From: Eledone cirrhosa
Lineage: Eukaryota
NCBI GenBank assembly: GCA_964016885.1
Contig: OZ024758.1
Coordinates: 4,402,001 to 4,466,000 of the forward strand
Length of the DNA stretch: 64,000 nt
Reading direction: 5' to 3'
Shown: in pieces, positions 2,827 to 61,821 of the stretch
Layout of the letters: the number at the start of each line of letters is the position of its first letter
Position numbering within the stretch: the first letter of the stretch is position 1
Program-made: the position numbers and the translations under genes
Notes under the pieces: model-generated
Databases searched by the model: none
What the model was told of the DNA's origin: nothing
The model's input: only the letters and a program-made list of their open reading frames with translations

Positions 2827-3437
2827 GGGGGATTGGCAGATTCGGTATAGGGTCTGAGGCCAGGCTTTCCAGCACAGAGTTTAACTTTGCCTTTCATCCT
2901 TACGGGGTCGATAAATTAAAGTACCAGTAATGTACTGAGTAATTGCTGGCCTTGTGCCAAAAGTAGGAAGAATTATATTATTAAAAGAGGGTGGTGGATT
3001 AGCAGAATCGTTAAAGCGTCGGACACCACGATTTGTGGCATAGAGTTACATCCCTTTACATTCTGAGTTCAAATACCAGCGAATTTAATTTTGCTTTTCA
3101 TCTTTACGGTGTCAATAAAATAAAGTACCAGTCACATACTGGGCTCGATTTCATCGGCTTTCCCTTCCCCAAAAATTGATAGCCTTCTGCCTATATAAGA
3201 AACCATTATTAAAAGAGGTTGGTGGATTGGCAGAATTGGTAGACAGTCGGATACCATAATTCCTGGCATAGAGTTATGGTCCTTTACATTCTGAGTTCAA
3301 ATCCAATCGAGTTAACGTTGCATTTCATCATTACAGAGTCGATAAAATAAAGTACCAATAAAGTACTAGGGTCGATTTAAAGGACTATCCTCTTCCCAGA
3401 AATTGCTGGCCTTGTGTCTATATCTGAAACCCTAATT
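2827..3437 (+). mobile_element. Three head-to-tail copies of SINE family 1 (~2827-2980, 2986-3210, 3214-3437)
   Basis: Each has a GGATTGGCAG-type A-box head, CTTTGCCTTTCATCCTTACGGGGTCGATAAA-type core and AGAAAC-ATTATT-type tail. Confidence 0.9.
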
Positions 3438-3489
3438 AAAACTGCTAGATAGAAGTTCAATCTTCTGAATGAGAACAGAGGTTATTTCA

Positions 3490-4113
3490 TGTCCAGCTAT
3501 ATCCTGTCCAGCTATACCATGTCCAGCTATACCATGTCCAGCTATACCATGTCCAGCTATACCATGTCCAACTATACCATCTCCAGCTATCTCACGTCCA
3601 GCTATATCATCTCCAGCTATCTCACGTCCAGCTATATCATCTCCAGCTATCTCACGTCCAGCTATATCATCTCCAGCTATCTCACGTCCAGCTATATCAT
3701 CTCCAGCTATATCATCTCCAGCTATCTCACGTCCAACTATACCATCTCCAGCTATCTCACGTCCAGCTATATCATCTCCAGCTATATCATCTCCAGCTAT
3801 CTCACGTCCAGCTATATCATCTCCAGCTATCTCACGTCCAGCTATACCATCTCCAGCTATCTCACGTCCAGCTATATCATCTCCAGCTATATCATCTCCA
3901 GCTATATCATCTCCAGCTATCTCACGTCCAGCTATACAATGTCCAGCTATACCATGTCCAGCTATCTCATGTCCAGCTATACCATGTCCAACTAAATCAT
4001 GTCCAGCTATCTCACGTCCAACTATCTCACGTCCAGCTATACCATGTCCAGCTATACCACGTCCAGCTATACCACGTCCAGCTATACCATGTCCAGCTAT
4101 ACCATGTCCAACT
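3490..4113. repeat. 15-bp minisatellite, ~41 units (CCAGCTATACCATGT / CCAGCTATCTCACGT / CCAGCTATATCATCT)
   Basis: Direct 15-nt periodicity; explains the PAISS/PAIPC and SSYII ORFs. Confidence 0.97.
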
Positions 4114-4283
4114 ACATCCTCAAGGGTTGGGTGTCTGTTAGAGATCTGAACTTATTTAATGCCATTGTTGGAAGCGAAACACCACATTTAGCGATACTTG
4201 TTTATTCTTTGTCAATTTCTAGAAACACATTTATATGAATTCCTAATTCCTTCAATCTTTACATAGATATGTATAGGTACTTC

Positions 4284-6677: not shown

Positions 6678-6718
<41 letters not shown>

Positions 6719-6726
<8 letters not shown>

Positions 6727-6994
6727 AATACCGACGAGTTGTTACTCCTTCATTACATTTATTGGTTGGAGACGCGTGTTTCGCCACCGATCAGCTCAAG
6801 GTTCGATCTGTATCAATCTATCCCGACTATTGTAATCCACGACTCGTCAGACACCTTTTAGTGGGTCTGACGAGCCGTGGATTAGATATCGGGCTAGTTT
6901 GATACAGATCGAACCTTGAGCTGATCGGTGGCGAAACGCGCGTCCCCAAGCAATAAACGTAATGAAGCAGTAACCACTCGTTCTTGTCTTATTT
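6719..6994. mobile_element. ~275-bp foldback of Penelope-like termini, each arm with an HHR-like core
   Basis: Two ~130-bp inverted arms around a loop at ~6853-6863; right arm CTGACGA-GCC...GGC-GAAA-CGCGCG-TC then AATAAA; abuts (TA)n 6682-6718. Confidence 0.75.
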
Positions 6995-8394
6995 TAATAT
7001 ACTACACTGTCAAGCTCTACACCTCAACGCAGAAGTGATACCTAAACATACAGTAACTCCACGTTACACTCCCTGTATGTATGTATGTATGTATGTATGT
7101 ATGTATGTACGTACGTATGTACGTGTGTGTGTGTACTGTCTGTGGCATTGTAGGTGTAAACAACTACAAAGCAAATATAGATTTGTATATGTGGCGAAAT
7201 CTTTCCACACCTTATTTTTATCACTGTTAATATGCCACTATCTTAACTTTTCAATATTTCGTGAAATGCAATGAAAGATGACAACTTTCAGTTTTATCTC
7301 CGTTTGAAAATATTTTTATTCTATGTTTCCAATGTTTTTGGCGCCAAGTTCATTTGAAAATGTCTTCAAACCAATATCGTTATGTGGATATCAAGGAAAC
7401 GTTGCTCACTCCATACTTAGCAACGTATTTCTCTTTGAAGAAAAGGAAGAATTACGGATGCATCAGCAAAATCTATGGTATTAAAGAAATATGATTGTAC
7501 AACAATAAAACATAAAGTTAAGAAAATATGGATTGAAATCCAACGTAGAATTATCGACCAGATTTCTGAAGATCTATTCAATAAAATTTCCGAGCGAAAG
7601 CAAAGGATTGAAGTAATTTTAATTAGAAGTTACTGCAGAATTGACGATGTTATTATCAGAAAGATTGCTCTTTATATCGAACGACATAGATAAATGTGAC
7701 ATATAAAATAAATTTGAAGCGTAAGGAATAAATGAATAAATAAATATACAAATATATGAAACAAGAAAATAATCTAATTTACTCAAAACTCAAAAGGATT
7801 TTGGTTATTAATTTGCTCGATAAATAATACTTTTTAACAGATAATGCAGCGAAATCTACAGTAACTGAATCAGCAATGGGAATAAAAAGGAATTATATAT
7901 TTCTTTGCATTTTTCTTTATCATTTTTATATTTATTTAATGAACCATAGAAATATTAAATATAGAAAAATATAGAAAAATATAGAAATTAAATAAACATA
8001 ATTATTTGCATCAAAATACTAGTGTGATAGCATATATTGGCTAGGAATTGCCATTTCAATTGCTTGAGGCCTGTAAAGAAATTGGAATAATTCAAAGACG
8101 AGTCCAGATTAATCCTATTTTGCTGCACCATGCGTAAGACATTCTTGATGTGTAATATGCAAGAAAAATTACAAAAATATATCTAAGAATAAATGTGTGT
8201 GCAACTATTTCACCTAATGCTAAATTTTGCAATATATCAACAAACAATATTCCGTTGAGAAATCTCTGACAAGCTTACGAAATAACAACTTTCACATATT
8301 CAATCAAAAGTAGATTTCCTCTGTTGAAATATTTATTTCGACTATAATATGAAACTTCAAACAGCGATCTTGCATTCGCGCGTGCGTGCATGCG

Positions 8395-9063: not shown

Positions 9064-9145
9064 ATGTGGACCGAAACGCACCAGAGTACTCAATACTTAG
9101 GGTAGTAGAGTGGGTAATAAGAAAATAGTCACGACTCGTTTCCTA
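9064..9145 (-). mobile_element. Fragment of GAGTACTCAATACTTAGGG terminus family (putative Penelope pLTR)
   Basis: CGCACCAGAGTACTCAATACTTAGGGTAGTAGA.TGGGTAATA is nearly identical to 58110-58152. Confidence 0.65.
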
Positions 9146-26448: not shown

Positions 26449-26452
<4 letters not shown>

Positions 26453-26651
26453 GTAGAACACTGGAGGGTAATATCCGTAGTAGTAGAACACTCAGTCCAT
26501 GAGAAGAGTTTGGTAGAAGTAGTAAAACAACAGTTAGTTTATCATACCGACAACAATTGTTTCACTTTGCCGATATTCAGCTCGGTCCGACCTGAAGATC
26601 CGCAAGGTGAAACAATTGTTTTCGGTATATTGAATTAATTGCTGTGTTACT

Positions 26652-26656
<5 letters not shown>
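26449..26656. mobile_element. (TA)n-embedded foldback element with minimal HHR (26587-26625)
   Basis: Flanked by (TA)n on both sides; ~68-bp inverted arms 26517-26585 / 26587-26655; CCGAC-CTGAAGA-TCCGCAAGGT-GAAA-CAATTG-TT-(G/T)TCGG. Confidence 0.8.
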
Positions 26657-26965: not shown

Positions 26966-27448
26966 ATAAATAATCAAAAGTGTTCCTTACATTGCTCGGA
27001 AAGAGATTTTGGGGTTAAATCCACGTCAAGGTTCATTGCTCGCAAAAATAGCTTGTTTTGATTTTGCAGCAGGTCAAGGCTATATATACATATACACAGA
27101 CACAGGACAGCACATGTGTATTTAGATGTAGTTGTATACCTCTTATTTATGACATATCAGCATATCCCGTATCCCGTGATAATATCAGCATATCCCGTAT
27201 CCCGTGATGGTTACACATGCTGTGTATTCGTACTATCCGATAATCGCCTGCACACACAGCTATCATATTAGATTATATATTTAGACATATATATTAAGTT
27301 GATCAAAATTGTTCATGTCATATGCATCAATGTAATTACACAACTATCTCTTCATATATATGAGATTCCTTAAAAATAATTCTTATCATTAACATCTATG
27401 TTATCACAATTACATTACAACATTACACACTCAGTTCCTTCTCACAAA

Positions 27449-27798
27449 GCTGTATCATACGTTGCTGTATCATACGTTGCTGTATCATACGTTGCTGTAT
27501 CATACGTTGCTGTATCATACGTTGTTGTATCATACGTTGCTGTATCATACGTTGTTGTATCATACGTTGCTGTATCATACGTTGCTGTATCATACGTTGT
27601 TGTATCATACGTTGCTGTATCATACGTTTCTGTATCATACGTTGCTGTATCATACGTTTTTGTATCATACGTTGCTGTATCATACGTTGCTGTATCATAC
27701 GTTGCTGTATCATACGTTGTTGTATCATACGTTGTTGTATCATACGTTGTTGTATCATACGTTGCTGTATCATACGTTGCTGTATCATACGTTGCTGT
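27449..27798. repeat. 15-bp minisatellite (GCTGTATCATACGTT), ~23 units
   Basis: Direct periodicity; explains the AVSYV/QQRMI/LLYHT ORFs. Confidence 0.97.
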
Positions 27799-27876
27799 GT
27801 GATCTGATAATGTCTATACATTAACATACAAACATCACCAAACTATTAGGTTAGACTACTTACATGTGTGTATGTA

Positions 27877-27916
<40 letters not shown>

Positions 27917-28315
27917 AACAAGTATGACCCCGACGGCAGAGCTCAAGCTGGACACTACGGCTTAATACGGGATGTTTGTTTACAAGCACACCGAGCATTA
28001 TAATAAATATTCGGTGAATCCATACGTACATATATATAGGTGTGCATGTATGTATATATATACATACTATTGTATGTCTGTATACATATATGTATGTACG
28101 CGTCCATACTTATATATATATATATAATATATATATATATAATATATATAATATATCTATATATATATAATATATCTATATATAATATATATAATATATC
28201 TATATATATAATATATCTATATATATCTATATCTATATATATATATATATAATATATATATATATAATATATATATATATATAATATATATATATATAAT
28301 ATATATATATATAAT

Positions 28316-28426: not shown

Positions 28427-28489
28427 TGTTTGTAGCGTGGGACGTATTATCCGATGGATATCCCTTGTGATTTTAATTAATAATATGAT

Positions 28490-28675
28490 TGTTTCTACTT
28501 TAGGCACAAGGCCAGCAATTACCCAGTGCATTACTGGTACTTTATTTTATCGACTCCGTAAGGATGAAAGGCAAAGTCAACCTCGGCGGGATTTGAACTC
28601 AGATCGTAAAGGGACGTAACTATGCTGGAAAGCATGGCGTCCGACCCTCTACCGATACTGCCAATCCACCGCCTC
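28490..28675 (-). mobile_element. Young full-length SINE family 1 (short form) with 16-bp TSD
   Basis: TAATTAATAATATGAT at 28474-28489 and 28676-28691; A-box TGGCAGTATCGG and B-box GAGTTCAAATCC intact. Confidence 0.95.
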
Positions 28676-33910: not shown

Positions 33911-33929
33911 TATATATATATATATGTAT

Positions 33930-34078
33930 CTCGGGTTCAATCGGAGGTAACCACAGTAAGTAAGGTACTCAATACATAGCAGAGTATAAATATTTAATAT
34001 AGAAATGGCTTCTATGACTAGGACTGTTTCATTCGAAGGAAATCATCAGGAAAGCCAGGCTTTCCTGATGATTTCCCT
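33930..34078 (-). mobile_element. Penelope-like terminus with HHR-like core and short terminal foldback
   Basis: Minus strand CTGATGA-TTTCCTTCGAAT-GAAA-CAGTC; perfect 19-bp arms 34038-34056 / 34058-34076; GTACTCAATAC motif; beside (TA)n. Confidence 0.55.
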
Positions 34079-40049: not shown

Positions 40050-40270
40050 AATAATAATTGTTTCTACTTTTGACACAAGGCCAGAAATTACCCCAGTGCA
40101 TTACTGGTACATTATTTTTTCGACCTCGTAAGGATGAAAGGCAAAGTTAACCTCGGCAGGATTTGAACTGAGACCATAAAGGTCCATAACTATGCTGCAA
40201 GGCATGGCGTCTGACCCTCTACCGATACTGCCAGTCCACCGCCCTAGCATGGCGTCTGACCCTCTACCGA
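40050..40270 (-). mobile_element. SINE family 1 with tandemly duplicated 5' head
   Basis: GCATGGCGTCTGACCCTCTACCGATACTGCCAGTCCACC.CCCT occurs twice (~40202-40245, truncated at ~40247-40290). Confidence 0.85.
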
Positions 40271-48821: not shown

Positions 48822-48985
48822 AATAATAATTGTTTCTACTTTAGGCACAAGGCCAGAAATTACCCAGTGCATTACTGGTACTTTATTTTATCGACCCCGT
48901 AAGGATGAAAGGCAAAGTCAACCTCGGCGGGATTTGAACTCAGATCGTAAAGGGACGTAACTATGCTGGAAAGCATGGCGTCCGA
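48822..48985 (-). mobile_element. Young SINE family 1 (short form), 5'-clipped
   Basis: Nearly identical to 28490-28645 and 60461-60622. Confidence 0.92.
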
Positions 48986-55129: not shown

Positions 55130-55300
55130 TTCCTGAGAGGGTCGTGGTGGAAGAGTGATTCCTCTAAATGAGTCCTGTCGAAACGCCCGGAGCTCAGCCG
55201 TTGGTGTCTTGACACTTTTCATAGGTCCCACTCTACTACCCTAAGTATTGAGTACTCTTATGATCCACCTAGTATCTTACCACACACTCTTTGTTGTTAT
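55130..55300 (+). mobile_element. GAGTACTCAATACTTAGGG terminus family, with degenerate HHR-like segment
   Basis: CCTGAGAGG...GTCGAAACG..GAGCTC.GCCGT...CCCACTCTACTACCCTAAGTATTGAGTACTCT...CTTACCAC..(TA)n; reverse-complement homolog of 58072-58195. Confidence 0.6.
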
Positions 55301-55589
55301 ATATATAACAACAAGTTGAAATTAATGCATGAAAGATTTCACAGGCTAGCATCATTCGTGCATAGGGTTACCAAACGAGGTTTATTTTTTAACATAGTCC
55401 AGGAAAGGAACAATGCAGTTATTCATGAGTAGAGTTGAAATTAATTCATGACAGATTTCGGAGCTCTAGCATCACTCCTTCATGAACGTTTCAGTATACA
55501 TCATATCAGGTGATTCATATTTTCATCATAGATTACGGGTAAAAAGTGCCATGTCAGAGTAACAACAAATAAAGACAAACACAAAAGCT

Positions 55590-58071: not shown

Positions 58072-58260
58072 AACGAAGGAGTTGTGGTAAGGAACCCGAT
58101 GGACCATAACGCACCAGAGTACTCAATACTTAGGGTAGTAGAATGGGTAATAGGAGAAAGTATGACCCCGACGGCAGAGCTCAAGCCGTTTCGACGGCTA
58201 TTTCTGGACTGAAATAGCCGTCGAAACGGCTTGATCTCTGCCGTCGGGGTCATACTTTCT

Positions 58261-58265
<5 letters not shown>
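58072..58265. mobile_element. (TA)n-embedded terminus with 55-bp foldback
   Basis: Arms 58150-58204 / 58211-58265 (1 mismatch), loop TGGACT; contains GTCGAAACG; (TA)n on both sides; fragment also at ~27913-27947. Confidence 0.8.
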
Positions 58266-58304
<39 letters not shown>

Positions 58305-60460
58305 TACATATATTTATATATGTTGCTACTATATATCGCCATCAGTTTATGTACACATTTAGACATACTAATATACATACACATGTATATGTAGGAAGTT
58401 ATGTGTGTATTTGTGACTGTTTGTGAGTACTCATGTTAAGAATTCGTGTATGTACTTGCGTATGTTTGAATGGTGAAATATATACGTGCACTTGCCTGCA
58501 TATCAGTGTCCAGTTCAATATGTGTAAATGTTTATATATATATATGGTTGTGTATGTCTGCATGTGTCTGTTTGTACGACTGAGAGAGAGCGAGATTCTG
58601 TGTAGATATATATATATATTTCTTTGGTTAATTTTGGTTTGCTTTGTTTGATATCTATATTGTTTATTTTATGTTTTATCAGAGTGTCTCGAGCTTTAAG
58701 ACAGCCTTTGATACACGTCCAGATTATAATTCATCTATCAGTTTCCATATTATCTCGTCTCGTTATCTATGTTCACTGATATGACGAAAGCAATAAAAAC
58801 CAGATTTTCGCGTTTGATCGAAAATTTTGTATTTCATTTACAGTGATTATATTCTTGAAAATTATTGTTCGACAAACTGGTCCGTTTCTATCGAAATGTC
58901 CTATAAAAATTTTCTGATTGTTGCTTTCACACACCATGTCTTTTATTGTCATAGTGACAACAGAAGATGAATATTGTGTTGTTAAAACAAGACATACTCT
59001 TAAAATCTGTTTTCATATAATGTCCGTCCTTGCGTTGGTGTGTTTGATTTTCACTGTAGACAGAACAGAACAGATACTGACTGAGCACCCTTAAGAGTAA
59101 TAAAATACTTAGCAGGTAATATCAATAATATAGTTATAAATCTAATATATTTTTGTATTCTTAGATATGTCAAAATCAAATCAATGATCTTCATGCCGAT
59201 ACCGTTAGTATAGAACTATATATGAAAATAAATTATATAAATATCAAATATCTGAATCACCTAGTATTGTAGACGGTTAGAACTGCAGTTTCTATGTTGA
59301 AGAATCAAAATGAATACACAATGTTACGTGAGCATGTTATTTTATGAAATGTTGGAAATGAGAATGGTGACAAATCAGATCCCATAAAATATCTAGAACA
59401 TTTACATTACGACGACTACTACTACACCTACTACTGCTGTTGCTACTACAATTATAACTAGCTAGTAGTAGTACTGGTGGTGTCAGTAGTGATGATATAA
59501 TGGTCATTGTGTAACTAGTAGTAGTGGTGGTGGTATAGAGGTCGTGATGTAGGTGGTGGTGGTATTATAATACTGGGGGTGATATATTGTTTTGACTGTT
59601 GAGGGAATAGTGTTGTTATTTGCTGAGGTAGCTTTGGTAACAAGAAGACAAGAGTGCAAGCTGATTGTATCACTGATATTGTTGTTGCTGTCGCTTTTGA
59701 TGGTGGCTTCCATTATTTATTGTAGTCGTTGTGGGTGTGATTATGTTAGTGTCATTATTATAGTAATTTCCTCTCTCATTTCAGATGTTGGTGATGGTGA
59801 TGGCGAGGACTCAGGTTGGCTTCTGGCTCTTTTTTCTTCTGCATCCGACTATGACAAGAACTGAAGAACATCCTAAATGTTCCTTCTAAACGAATAACGA
59901 GCAAATTAATATTTAAAGAACAGATTATTCCCCAAAATTCTGAAGTGCAGGTCTGCTGTCTCTGAAGGAGATATACGTGAACTCTACAGTACTTGACTGG
60001 TCACTTACGGAAACCAATGATGACAATTTTCTCTGCCTACTGTTAGAGTAAATAAACAAAAACTGGAAGAAAACACAACCCTGAAGCCATAACAATCATT
60101 GATTTTTAAGATGGCATTTCTAATTCTAATGAAAGCTTTTTGACTTAGCACAGTAAGATACATAAGAAAGATAGAAGATAGAGCAGCGGGAAGCAGCTCC
60201 ATTTCCAGTAATCCATTAGCGACAGAATAATGACTGCTGAGTTAAATAGAAATAAAATAATGATTTCTTTTGTTGGCCACAAGGGGGCTCGACTTTGGAC
60301 AGTGTTTGGAAAAAAAAAACACAAAGTGGAATTTCATCAAATTAATAGAGGATGTTGACGAAGGAGAAAATGTTGACGTAACAGAAACAACATCTACTAC
60401 AGTAAAGGCAATTAGGATTTCCTTCTTTATTATTATTATTTGAAATAATAATAATTGTTA

Positions 60461-61027
60461 TAATAATTGTTTCTACTTTAGGCACAAGGCCAGCAATTAC
60501 CCAGTGCATTACTGGTACTTTATTTTACCGACCCCGTAAGGATGAAAGGCAAAGTCAACCTCGGCGGGATTTGAACTCAGATCGCAAAGGGACGTAACTA
60601 TGCTGGAAAGCATGGCGTCCGACCCTCCACCGATACTGCCAAAATGGTTTCTTATATAGGCACAATGACAGCAATTTTGGCGGAGGGGAAATTCAATTAA
60701 ATTGAGCCCAGTGCATGACTAGTACTTTATTTTATCGACCACGTAAGGATGAAAGATAAAGTTAACCTCGGCGGGATTTCAACTCAAATCATAAAGAGCC
60801 GTAACTCTATGCTGCAAAGCATGGCATCCGACCCTCAGCCGATACTGCCAATCCACCACCCTAATAATGGTAATAATAATAATATTGATTTCCACTATAT
60901 GCACCATGGCCAGTAATTTGGGGAGAAGGGTAAATCGATGAGATTGACCTCAGTGCATTACTGGTACTTTATTCTAACGACCCCGTAAGAATGAAAGGCA
61001 AAGTTAACTTCAGCGAGATCAGAACTA
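60461..61027 (-). mobile_element. Three head-to-tail SINE family 1 copies (~60461-60642, 60645-60861, 60883-61027)
   Basis: Repeated tail-core-head organisation. Confidence 0.92.
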
Positions 61028-61312
61028 AGGATGAGGGCATTCAAAACAGTTTCTTCGTTCTATGTACATCTTAAACACCCACATCGGACAACATTACTGT
61101 GAATATAGAGTTTTGTTCGCAGCCGGACCTTCAAATACTCATAAGATTATTCCGTGATACCTGCTTAAGAAATGCGTGACCACCACCTAAGTGATTGTTG
61201 TCGATATCGATCCCTGGAACATGGTCACTCTCAAGACATAATAAGATCAAGTGTTTGTTGATGCTTTCAGATTTTTAAATGTTGGTTTAAGGACATTACT
61301 TGAGCCGGCTAA

Positions 61313-61505
61313 GGGCGGTGGATTGGAAATTATCGGTAAAGAGTCTGACACTATGCTTTACTGTTTCAGTTCGAATCCGGCTGAGGTTAACTTTGCTTTT
61401 CATCCTTAAGGGGTCGATAAAATAAAACACCAGTAACGTACTGGAGTCGATTTAATCGAATTCTCGTCCCCAAATTACTGACATTGGGCCTATACTAGAA
61501 ATCTT
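61313..61505 (+). mobile_element. SINE family 1 (long form)
   Basis: GGGCGGTGGATTGG head, GTTCGAATCC B-box, core, tail. Confidence 0.85.
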
Positions 61506-61821
61506 TATTTGAGTCGACTGATAGTAGTAGAGGTGGTGGTGATAGTGTTGGTCATAGGCCAGCATTGTTTGACCCGACTCGTGTCGTTAGTTCTGAATTT
61601 ATTTTGTCAATAAACTGGGTTCATAAAAATAATTCTATGACTCAAATCTTATGAAAAATCATTTCTGCTTGCCAATTGTCACCCCCACCACTCTCTCTCT
61701 TTCTCATTCGTTCTGTCTCTCTATATCTCTCTAACTCGCTGTGTTTCGGTACGTGTGTGCGTGAGAGAGAAAGAGACCTAGAGATTAGACATGTGTTTAA
61801 ATCTTGAACGAGGTTTTTGTG

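What the first reader, a model, noticed from the sequence alone, without database searches (positions are those of the whole stretch)
6719..6994. Long foldback whose symmetry axis lies immediately 5' of the hammerhead
Seen: two ~130-bp inverted arms, each with CTGACGA...GGCGAAAC(A/G)CGCGTC and a downstream AATAAA; the loop is only a few nt upstream of the core. The same geometry occurs in unrelated elements at 26586 and 34057, and at 58205 the axis falls just upstream of GAAA. Inference: the inversions recur at the ribozyme, which suggests snap-back self-priming or template switching at the structured 5' end during retrotransposition. Either strand would yield a ribozyme-containing transcript and potentially long dsRNA. 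Stem I is imperfect in both arms here.
Basis: partly seen in the sequence, partly recalled or inferred. Interest (0 to 1): 0.75.

Follow-up and report, generated by a model that had tools for sequence, protein, structure and literature searches.

The report
Two-armed Penelope retroelement stub
This DNA hairpin is a short, two-armed insertion of a known kind of jumping gene (a Penelope-like element), and copies of four such families in this genome stop at a fixed spot beside or inside the ribozyme, likely because the enzyme copies the start of its own RNA once from each side of a DNA cut and runs off the RNA's end, which would be a testable clue to how these elements insert.

Summary
The foldback is real (88% arm identity), but the element runs to 7075: the right arm carries an ~85-nt tail that the left lacks. 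It is a head-to-head pair of short end copies of a Penelope-like element (PLE) with Hydra-clade protein motifs, sitting in TA-rich microsatellite; one genomic copy links this end to an RT plus C-terminal GIY-YIG ORF. Inverted pLTRs, one-sided tails and a self-priming explanation are all in print.

Added here: in 270 copies sampled by 3' anchors, 5' ends pile up in a narrow zone in all four families. 142 of 156 inverted pairs join a tail-less arm to a tailed arm, and in 44 of the 142 the tail-less arm reaches more than 10 nt further 5', which simple snap-back cannot give. In two families the stop sits ~30 nt below a TATA-like box at an initiator-like A; one shows an excess untemplated G (76/100 vs 30/100 control), and in the other the stop is inside the ribozyme. 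The axis therefore likely marks the RNA 5' end, not the ribozyme. For this family the zone is broad and the start site is unproven. The scan reached a similar reading on other genomes.

The parts
6680..6718 (.). (TA)19 target microsatellite, left flank
   Evidence: sequence
6719..6864 (-). short (tail-less) arm: pLTR copy from 14 nt upstream of the core to the short 3' end near +135
   Evidence: 53 of 93 sampled arms end within 14 nt of +135
6771..6855 (-). minimal type I hammerhead, left arm: CTGACGA 6850-6844, GAAA 6782-6779, predicted cut between 6771 and 6770; pair 1.1-2.1 and the stem III palindrome are mutated
6863..6864 (.). head-to-head junction, 2-nt GG overlap shared by both arms
   Evidence: compared with upstream sequence of copies
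6863..6998 (+). long arm, part shared with the left arm; starts at -4, the spike position of family A 5' ends
6863..6948 (+). minimal type I hammerhead, right arm: CTGACGA 6867-6873, long stem II, GAAA 6933-6936, palindromic stem III, predicted cut between 6944 and 6945; base 1.1 mutated A>C
6952..6957 (+). AATAAA (mirror TTTATT at 6758-6763); function not tested
   Evidence: sequence
6999..7075 (+). tail, present only in the long arm (about 100 nt in intact copies, internally deleted here); runs directly into the ORF start in long copies
7076..7108 (.). (TATG)n right flank
   Evidence: sequence
26450..26655 (.). family D stub: inverted tailed arm plus tail-less arm in (TA)n
   Evidence: 2,965 exact tail-anchor hits
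33929..34077 (.). family B stub: inverted tailed arm plus a ~20-bp remnant of the second arm
   Evidence: 15,745 exact tail-anchor hits
58073..58262 (.). family C stub: both arms start inside stem II and lack the first catalytic box
   Evidence: 32,054 exact tail-anchor hits

Best explanation
The hairpin is a two-armed stub of a Penelope-like retroelement with Hydra-clade protein motifs, likely made when the element's enzyme cut a TA repeat, primed one cDNA from each DNA end at two fixed internal sites of its RNA leader, ran off at the likely 5' end of the RNA, and the two cDNAs were probably joined head to head by microhomology. Shown: the link of this end to an RT plus GIY-YIG ORF, two fixed 3' ends, short+long pairing, a discrete 5' stop zone, and TA targets. 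Known from another PLE in vitro: cutting and extension of both strands from two internal start sites that bracket the tail. Inferred: that the stop is the transcription start, that both ends prime in one event, and how the ends are joined. The ribozyme lies next to the axis because it sits at the start of the transcript; it need not act.
For: Single copy L386 joins tail > ORF > EN > 3' UTR > hammerhead end; motifs. 5' ends: 59 of 67 (A), 24 of 36 (B), 41 of 49 (C) and 22 of 36 (D) copies that reach the zone stop in it; scan LRT 102, 60, 107, 51 against null maxima of 18-21 in 200 constant-hazard simulations. Short+long in 142 of 156 pairs; in B-D, where the anchor arm is always tailed, the partner is tailed in 4 of 121. 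The tail-less arm reaches >10 nt further 5' in 44 of 142. In family A the two ends are independent (both in zone 9 vs 9.8 expected; rho -0.17). Hard edge at A(-6) of CCAGATT with TATAAAT at -36 in B, and at the A of TCAGTC/TTAGTC (+43/+45) with a TATTTA-like box at +14 in C. G precedes A(-6) in 76 of 100 listed junctions vs 30 of 100 at a control position, and is 18 vs 4 A among 99 TA-abutting copies; untemplated G is read as cap copying for L1 (PMC4859970 passages). Family A has a spike at -4/-3 (8 of 55 refined ends) about 29 nt below TATAA, where this copy's long arm starts. PMC11167929 (parts 1-2 of 4): both strands cleaved and extended, two internal starts.
Against: No RNA 5'-end data. 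In family A most ends (27 of 55) lie at -37..-16, upstream of the TATA-predicted start, so one start site does not explain them. Of 30 ORF-linked family A copies, 7 pass +15 and only 2 of these stop in the zone. The extra G in B is also the complement of a stem I 3'-strand base, and in 30 inspected loci several Gs could come from the partner arm or a GA repeat. Arm ends are correlated in B and C (rho 0.52, 0.50), and some pairs are near-perfect palindromes at internal hairpins, as fold-back would give. D has no TATA box at the expected distance. TATA and initiator matches were read after seeing the stops.
Confidence: 0.65

Rival explanations
1. Snap-back self-priming: one cDNA folds back at the ribozyme's hairpins and copies itself, and the endonuclease later trims one end to leave the tail on one side only.
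For: Arms of a pair are more alike than arms of different loci in B (0.973 vs 0.924, 21 of 23) and C (0.952 vs 0.912, 33 of 35). Ends are correlated in B and C. 76 of 142 pairs have ends within 10 nt of each other, and a few are palindromes at internal hairpins.
Against: It cannot give this copy, nor the 44 of 142 pairs in which the tail-less arm reaches >10 nt further 5'. No sister-arm excess identity or end correlation in A or D. Shared variants are equally expected if both arms come from one RNA or one source gene.
Confidence: 0.12
2. Twin priming as above, but the stop is set by RNA processing or an RT block rather than the transcription start: a 5' exonuclease halted at the folded ribozyme or bound protein, or release of the enzyme on the U-rich stretch upstream of the core.
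For: In B, D and the A spike the stop coincides with the 5' edge of stem I. A has a U-rich tract at about -28..-19 where many ends fall. ORF-linked A copies often pass the zone.
Against: In C only 1 of 71 copies ends between +30 and -40 (at +10, an alignment-overlap case), none at the stem I edge; the edge is inside stem II at an initiator-like A. The extra G fits a cap better than an exonuclease end. If ORF-linked copies pass the zone freely, a fixed sequence block is also weakened.
Confidence: 0.17
3. Ribozyme self-cleavage makes the RNA 5' end that sets the junction.
For: A minor group of family A ends lies just past the predicted cut at +79: 12 of 93 between +73 and +93.
Against: The main zones lie 5' of the cut and include the whole core (A, B, D) or fall inside stem II (C), which a cleaved 3' product could not template. 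Cleavage was dispensable in vitro for another PLE (PMC11167929, part 2).
Confidence: 0.03
4. MITE or foldback DNA transposon with terminal inverted repeats, or an assembly fold-back artefact.
For: Long inverted arms, TA-rich flanks.
Against: The outer ends differ by a ~100-nt tail and the inner junction varies from copy to copy. The arms are the end of an RT-encoding element. The arms differ at 12% of positions, unlike a read fold-back.
Confidence: 0.01

Closest known systems
Hydra-clade C-terminal EN+ Penelope-like elements (Craig et al. 2021, PMC8557442; sections 6 and 11 and passages read)
   Same: C-terminal GIY-YIG, DKT, CxCX5C linker, no CCHH, CxxC and CxH around E and N, hammerhead in the pLTR, (TA)n targets, inverted 5'-truncated copy, one-sided tail.
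   Different: Tail is ~60-100 nt, not 30-40. RWR instead of RWK. Element ~3.9 kb, not <3 kb. The paper treats 5' truncation as high and variable; here it is a discrete stop. No tree was built.
Poseidon PAc of Anolis, in vitro (Frangieh et al. 2024, PMC11167929; parts 1-2 of 4 read, supplements not seen)
   Same: Two internal RT starts bracket the tail; both strands cut and extended; AT-rich targets; hammerhead upstream of the starts and dispensable for insertion.
   Different: That work saw no strand difference in start site, whereas genomic pairs here are short+long in 142 of 156. It did not address the 5' junction in the parts read.
Inverted-pLTR Penelope copies of Adineta vaga (Arkhipova et al. 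2013, PMC3846280; passages and Discussion read)
   Same: Head-to-head pLTRs, optional tail, palindromic junctions, TATA and Inr-like motifs in the pLTR, microhomology junctions.
   Different: That paper favours self-priming on an antisense template. The junction asymmetry here argues for two separate cDNAs from sense RNA.
Minimal type I hammerheads of metazoan PLEs (Cervera and de la Pena 2014, PMC4209133; parts 1-2 of 4 read)
   Same: Short helix I, long helix II, palindromic helix III, dual motifs 100-700 bp apart on opposite strands, and a U3-A8 variant (seen in family C).
   Different: Stem II here carries a ~40-nt loop; both motifs in this copy are decayed.
L1 twin priming (PMC4859970 passages) and retroviral minus-strand strong-stop DNA (recalled)
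   Same: Two DNA ends prime on RNA; an untemplated G marks a capped end; run-off at the RNA 5' end after internal priming.
   Different: L1 twin priming inverts without duplicating, while the arms here overlap. No tRNA primer or integrase is involved. This is an analogy, not membership.

Membership tests
EN+ Penelope-like elements | End sequence belongs to an element with a single RT plus GIY-YIG ORF | tested here: met
   L386 links tail, ORF, EN, UTR and hammerhead end; L385 and L387 link EN to the end. RT motifs. Pfam GIY-YIG E 0.0027, 18.4 bits, below the cut-off of 22.6; no Pfam RT hit on two ORF pieces.
EN+ Penelope-like elements | pLTR with hammerhead; the same sequence precedes the ORF and ends the element | tested here: met
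EN+ Penelope-like elements | Inverted 5'-truncated copy and one-sided tail | tested here: met
   37 of 93 family A arms have an inverted partner of 14 nt or more; tail ~100 nt rather than 30-40
Hydra clade | DKT motif, CxCX5C linker, no CCHH, CxxC and CxH flanking E and N | tested here: met
   ADKTGN, CNCKKRVEC, CRLC and CRH in L381-L387; definition from PMC8557442 section 11
Hydra clade | RWK motif | tested here: inconclusive
   IRWRA (RWR) at the matching place
Hydra clade | (TA)n insertion | tested here: met
Hydra clade | Generally short (<3 kb) | tested here: not met
   ORF ~2.5 kb, but tail to 3' end ~3.9 kb in L386; the paper words this as a tendency
Hydra clade | RT phylogeny groups with Hydra references | not tested
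   No reference set fetched; supplements of PMC8557442 not opened
Naiad clade | N-terminal EN, DKA motif | tested here: not met
   EN is C-terminal and the motif is DKT
Minimal type I hammerhead | CUGANGA, GAAA, NUH and three helices | tested here: met
   85.9% of cells paired over 30 copies vs 20-55% for slid controls; pair 1.1-2.1 broken in both window arms
Minimal type I hammerhead | Compensatory change supporting the fold | tested here: inconclusive
   Within family A: 2 double changes, 208 of 500 shuffles as high. Stem I differs in matched fashion between B subfamilies by eye only.
Minimal type I hammerhead | Self-cleavage | not testable with these tools
   needs an in vitro assay
Non-LTR retrozyme | Tandem head-to-tail hammerhead units | tested here: not met
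   Single inverted pair here; no hammerhead arrays among the 90 family A loci; definition from 10.64898/2026.07.22.740005, part 1 of 5
MITE / TIR DNA transposon | Fixed terminal inverted repeats around a constant interior | tested here: not met
   Unequal outer ends, variable inner junction, RT parent

The most novel reading that the evidence does not exclude
These PLEs begin every insertion like a retrovirus making strong-stop DNA, but twice and asymmetrically: one DNA end always primes at the short site and the other at the tail site of the capped 5' leader, both run off at the cap, and a longer insertion arises only when a cDNA jumps to the 3' pLTR. The tens of thousands of foldback stubs would be aborted first-strand transfers that also map each family's promoter, and the same jump would explain how the pseudo-LTR is regenerated.
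Probability: 0.3. Interest if true: 0.75.

Novelty: new member of a known kind. Interest (0 to 1): 0.42.

Why it matters
The structure itself is ordinary for PLEs. [quoted passage not shown] The counts here give sharp predictions: cap sites at B -6 and C +43/+45, and obligate short+long use of the two DNA ends. These can be tested with 5'-end sequencing and an existing in vitro system. Searches found no paper stating that PLE 5' junctions mark the transcription start, but the library lacks most subscription journals and supplements were not seen.

Tried and rejected
Whole-window Rfam scan: the 150 rows shown of 414 were all miRNA models on microsatellites. Whole-window inverted-repeat list: swamped by microsatellites. 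CTGANGA alone is not enriched (17 vs 16.5 expected). L012 upstream sequence looked like an ORF end but was another repeat, so loci L031-L060 were not used for family A. The first 30 copies were picked by full-length similarity and were left out of the end statistics, along with 7 of the 100 listed anchor places that fell in them. Idea that the minor +73..+93 group is a main driver: only 12 of 93. Idea of a spliced leader ending at the AG before the core: no shared upstream exon at -4/-3 junctions. Idea that long arms stall at the short start site: at most a weak excess by eye, not tested formally. ADAR footprint in this copy: one A>G per arm, shared and a subfamily trait. RNA: no RNA holder listed. 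Contigs of four coded runs cover the axis only by overlapping pieces; none bridges it with 31 letters on each side, and they may be the assembly's own sample. No PDB match, no Atlas result, no tRNA in the window. The DCAG count (T in 88 of 100) is ambiguous because the C can come from the partner arm.

Full report
Observation. The arms match at 114 of 129 shared positions and fold at z = -24. Each has the hammerhead boxes and AATAAA. Positions below count from the C of CTGA as 0. The left arm runs from -14 to about +135 and abuts (TA)19. The right arm runs from -4 through a tail to window position 7075 and abuts (TATG)n. The arms share a 2-nt overlap at 6863-6864. Each arm thus holds sequence the other lacks. 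Both ribozyme copies have lost pair 1.1-2.1 and score below Rfam's threshold.

What it is. The window lies in a 3.0-Gb animal genome; its microsatellite load suggests an octopus-type genome, which is inference only. Copies of this family (A) end at one of two sites, about +135 or about +236, followed by TA. Long copies lead upstream into a 3' UTR, a GIY-YIG region and an RT region, and the tail runs straight into the ORF start. L386 carries tail, ORF, EN, UTR and hammerhead end in one piece of about 3.9 kb. The protein has DKT, CxCX5C, no CCHH, and CxxC and CxH motifs, the features listed for the Hydra clade; no tree was built. The other three sites belong to families B, C and D with the same two-end design. 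B's tail also enters an ORF of this type; C and D were not linked to an ORF. Exact anchor counts are 247 (A), 15,745 (B), 32,054 (C) and 2,965 (D).

I sampled arms by anchors 3' of the ribozyme: 93 for A (of the first 100 listed places), 55 for B, 71 for C and 51 for D, including incidental exact hits in loci fetched for other purposes. Exact anchors favour young copies, and the targeted loci come from contigs C1-C4. Ends pile up in a zone: A -40..+15 (59 of 67 that reach it), B -13..+4 (24 of 36), C +33..+59 (41 of 49), D -13..+8 (22 of 36). Most copies that pass it run at least 120 nt further. These zones were drawn after seeing the data, so I also ran a scan test: 102, 60, 107 and 51 against null maxima of 18-21 in 200 constant-hazard simulations (the null scanned 6 window widths, the data 11). 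BLAST ends overshoot by a few bases, so junctions were refined for 20 B pairs, 22 C pairs and 55 A arms. Uniform axis positions are rejected. The neat symmetric form seen in the window is a minority in A: both arms are in the zone in 9 of 26 short+long pairs.

How the two arms arise. Of 156 inverted pairs, 142 join a tail-less to a tailed arm (A 26 of 35, B 34 of 35, C 52 of 54, D 30 of 32). Three of A's four 'short+short' pairs have a tail displaced by a later insertion. Fold-back from the tail-less arm cannot create a tail. Fold-back from the tailed arm requires that arm to reach at least as far 5'. The tail-less arm reaches more than 10 nt further in 44 of 142 pairs, the tailed arm in 22, and 76 are within 10 nt. 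This copy has the tail-less arm 10 nt further. In A the two ends are independent. Against this reading, ends are correlated in B and C, sister arms there share private variants, and a few pairs are palindromes at internal hairpins, so fold-back or annealing through ribozyme stems may make a minority. Priming from both strands at two internal starts is shown in vitro for another PLE.

Why the stop is there. In C the first catalytic box (a U3-A8 variant) lies about 45 nt upstream of the stop, so the stubs lack it and the stem I edge is not a stop. The C edge is the A of TCAGTC/TTAGTC, 29-31 nt below a TATTTA-like box. The B edge is the A of CCAGATT, 30 nt below TATAAAT. CCAAT lies about 85-90 nt above these sites in most A, B and C references. 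The base before B's A(-6), when not the templated C, is G in 76 of 100 listed places, against 30 of 100 at a control three bases downstream. Among 99 TA-abutting copies it is T 57, C 20, G 18, A 4. Untemplated G is taken as cap copying for L1. Caveats: some Gs can come from the partner arm or a GA repeat, and G also complements a stem I base. In A the same geometry predicts about -4, where 8 of 55 ends fall, as does this copy's long arm. But 27 of 55 lie at -37..-16, and 5 of 7 ORF-linked copies that pass +15 run beyond -60. A and D therefore need dispersed starts or another cause. The transcription-start reading is inferred; no RNA 5' ends were available.

Comparison with what is known. Inverted truncated copies, one-sided tails and TA targets are described in PMC8557442. 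Opposite-strand minimal hammerhead pairs are in PMC4209133. Palindromic junctions read as self-priming are in PMC3846280. A start site inside the pLTR is in PMC2377424. I found no paper tying the 5' junction to the start site or reporting near-obligate short+long pairing. Supplements of PMC11167929 and PMC8557442 were not seen and may bear on this. My reading was recorded before the look-up; earlier scan notes reached a similar one on other genomes and noted two fixed ends in this genome. These notes are not independent support.

Verdict. A real, ordinary-looking PLE stub and a new member of a known kind. The population data contradict simple snap-back and shift the cause from the ribozyme to the RNA's 5' end, with moderate confidence (0.65). 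Interest 0.42.

Noticed in passing
family C, e.g. L234, L239, L252; window 58073-58262: The ribozyme has a U3-A8 core (TTGANAA in L234 and L252), a 5-bp stem III with a palindromic loop and a long stem II that contains the TATA-like box and initiator-like motif. Transcripts starting there would lack the core.
   Followed up: partly
tails of families A-D: All four tails carry a GAGTRC(T/C) motif, palindromic in A, C and D; intact A tails also have a 12-nt palindrome. Possible protein-binding or RNA-pairing site.
   Followed up: no
L352 and similar family B pairs: The two arms are joined through the 7-nt stem I complementarity, one ending at -6 and the other just past the cut site.
   Followed up: partly
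L002:1380-1510: A family B tail fragment is fused directly to the -5 position of a family A arm: a cross-family junction.
   Followed up: no
L075, L073, L384: Internally deleted or multiply inverted copies join RT or EN pieces to the 3' UTR.
   Followed up: partly
window 28480-28664, 60460-60642, 48823-48985, 40050-40243 and about ten more places: Abundant ~190-bp dispersed repeat, some copies 97-98% identical, with tandem partial units at 2877-3441 and 60460-61511. SINE-like by recall, not tested.
   Followed up: no
window 9067-9135, 27915-27950, 55177-55311: Further family C fragments, including an older diverged copy.
   Followed up: no
window 3432-4151 and 27400-27810: 15-bp tandem arrays that read as long open frames; no sign tested that they code.
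   Followed up: no
L025, minus strand 233-931: 233-aa open frame resembling the C-terminal endonuclease region of a non-LTR retrotransposon (recalled resemblance).
   Followed up: no
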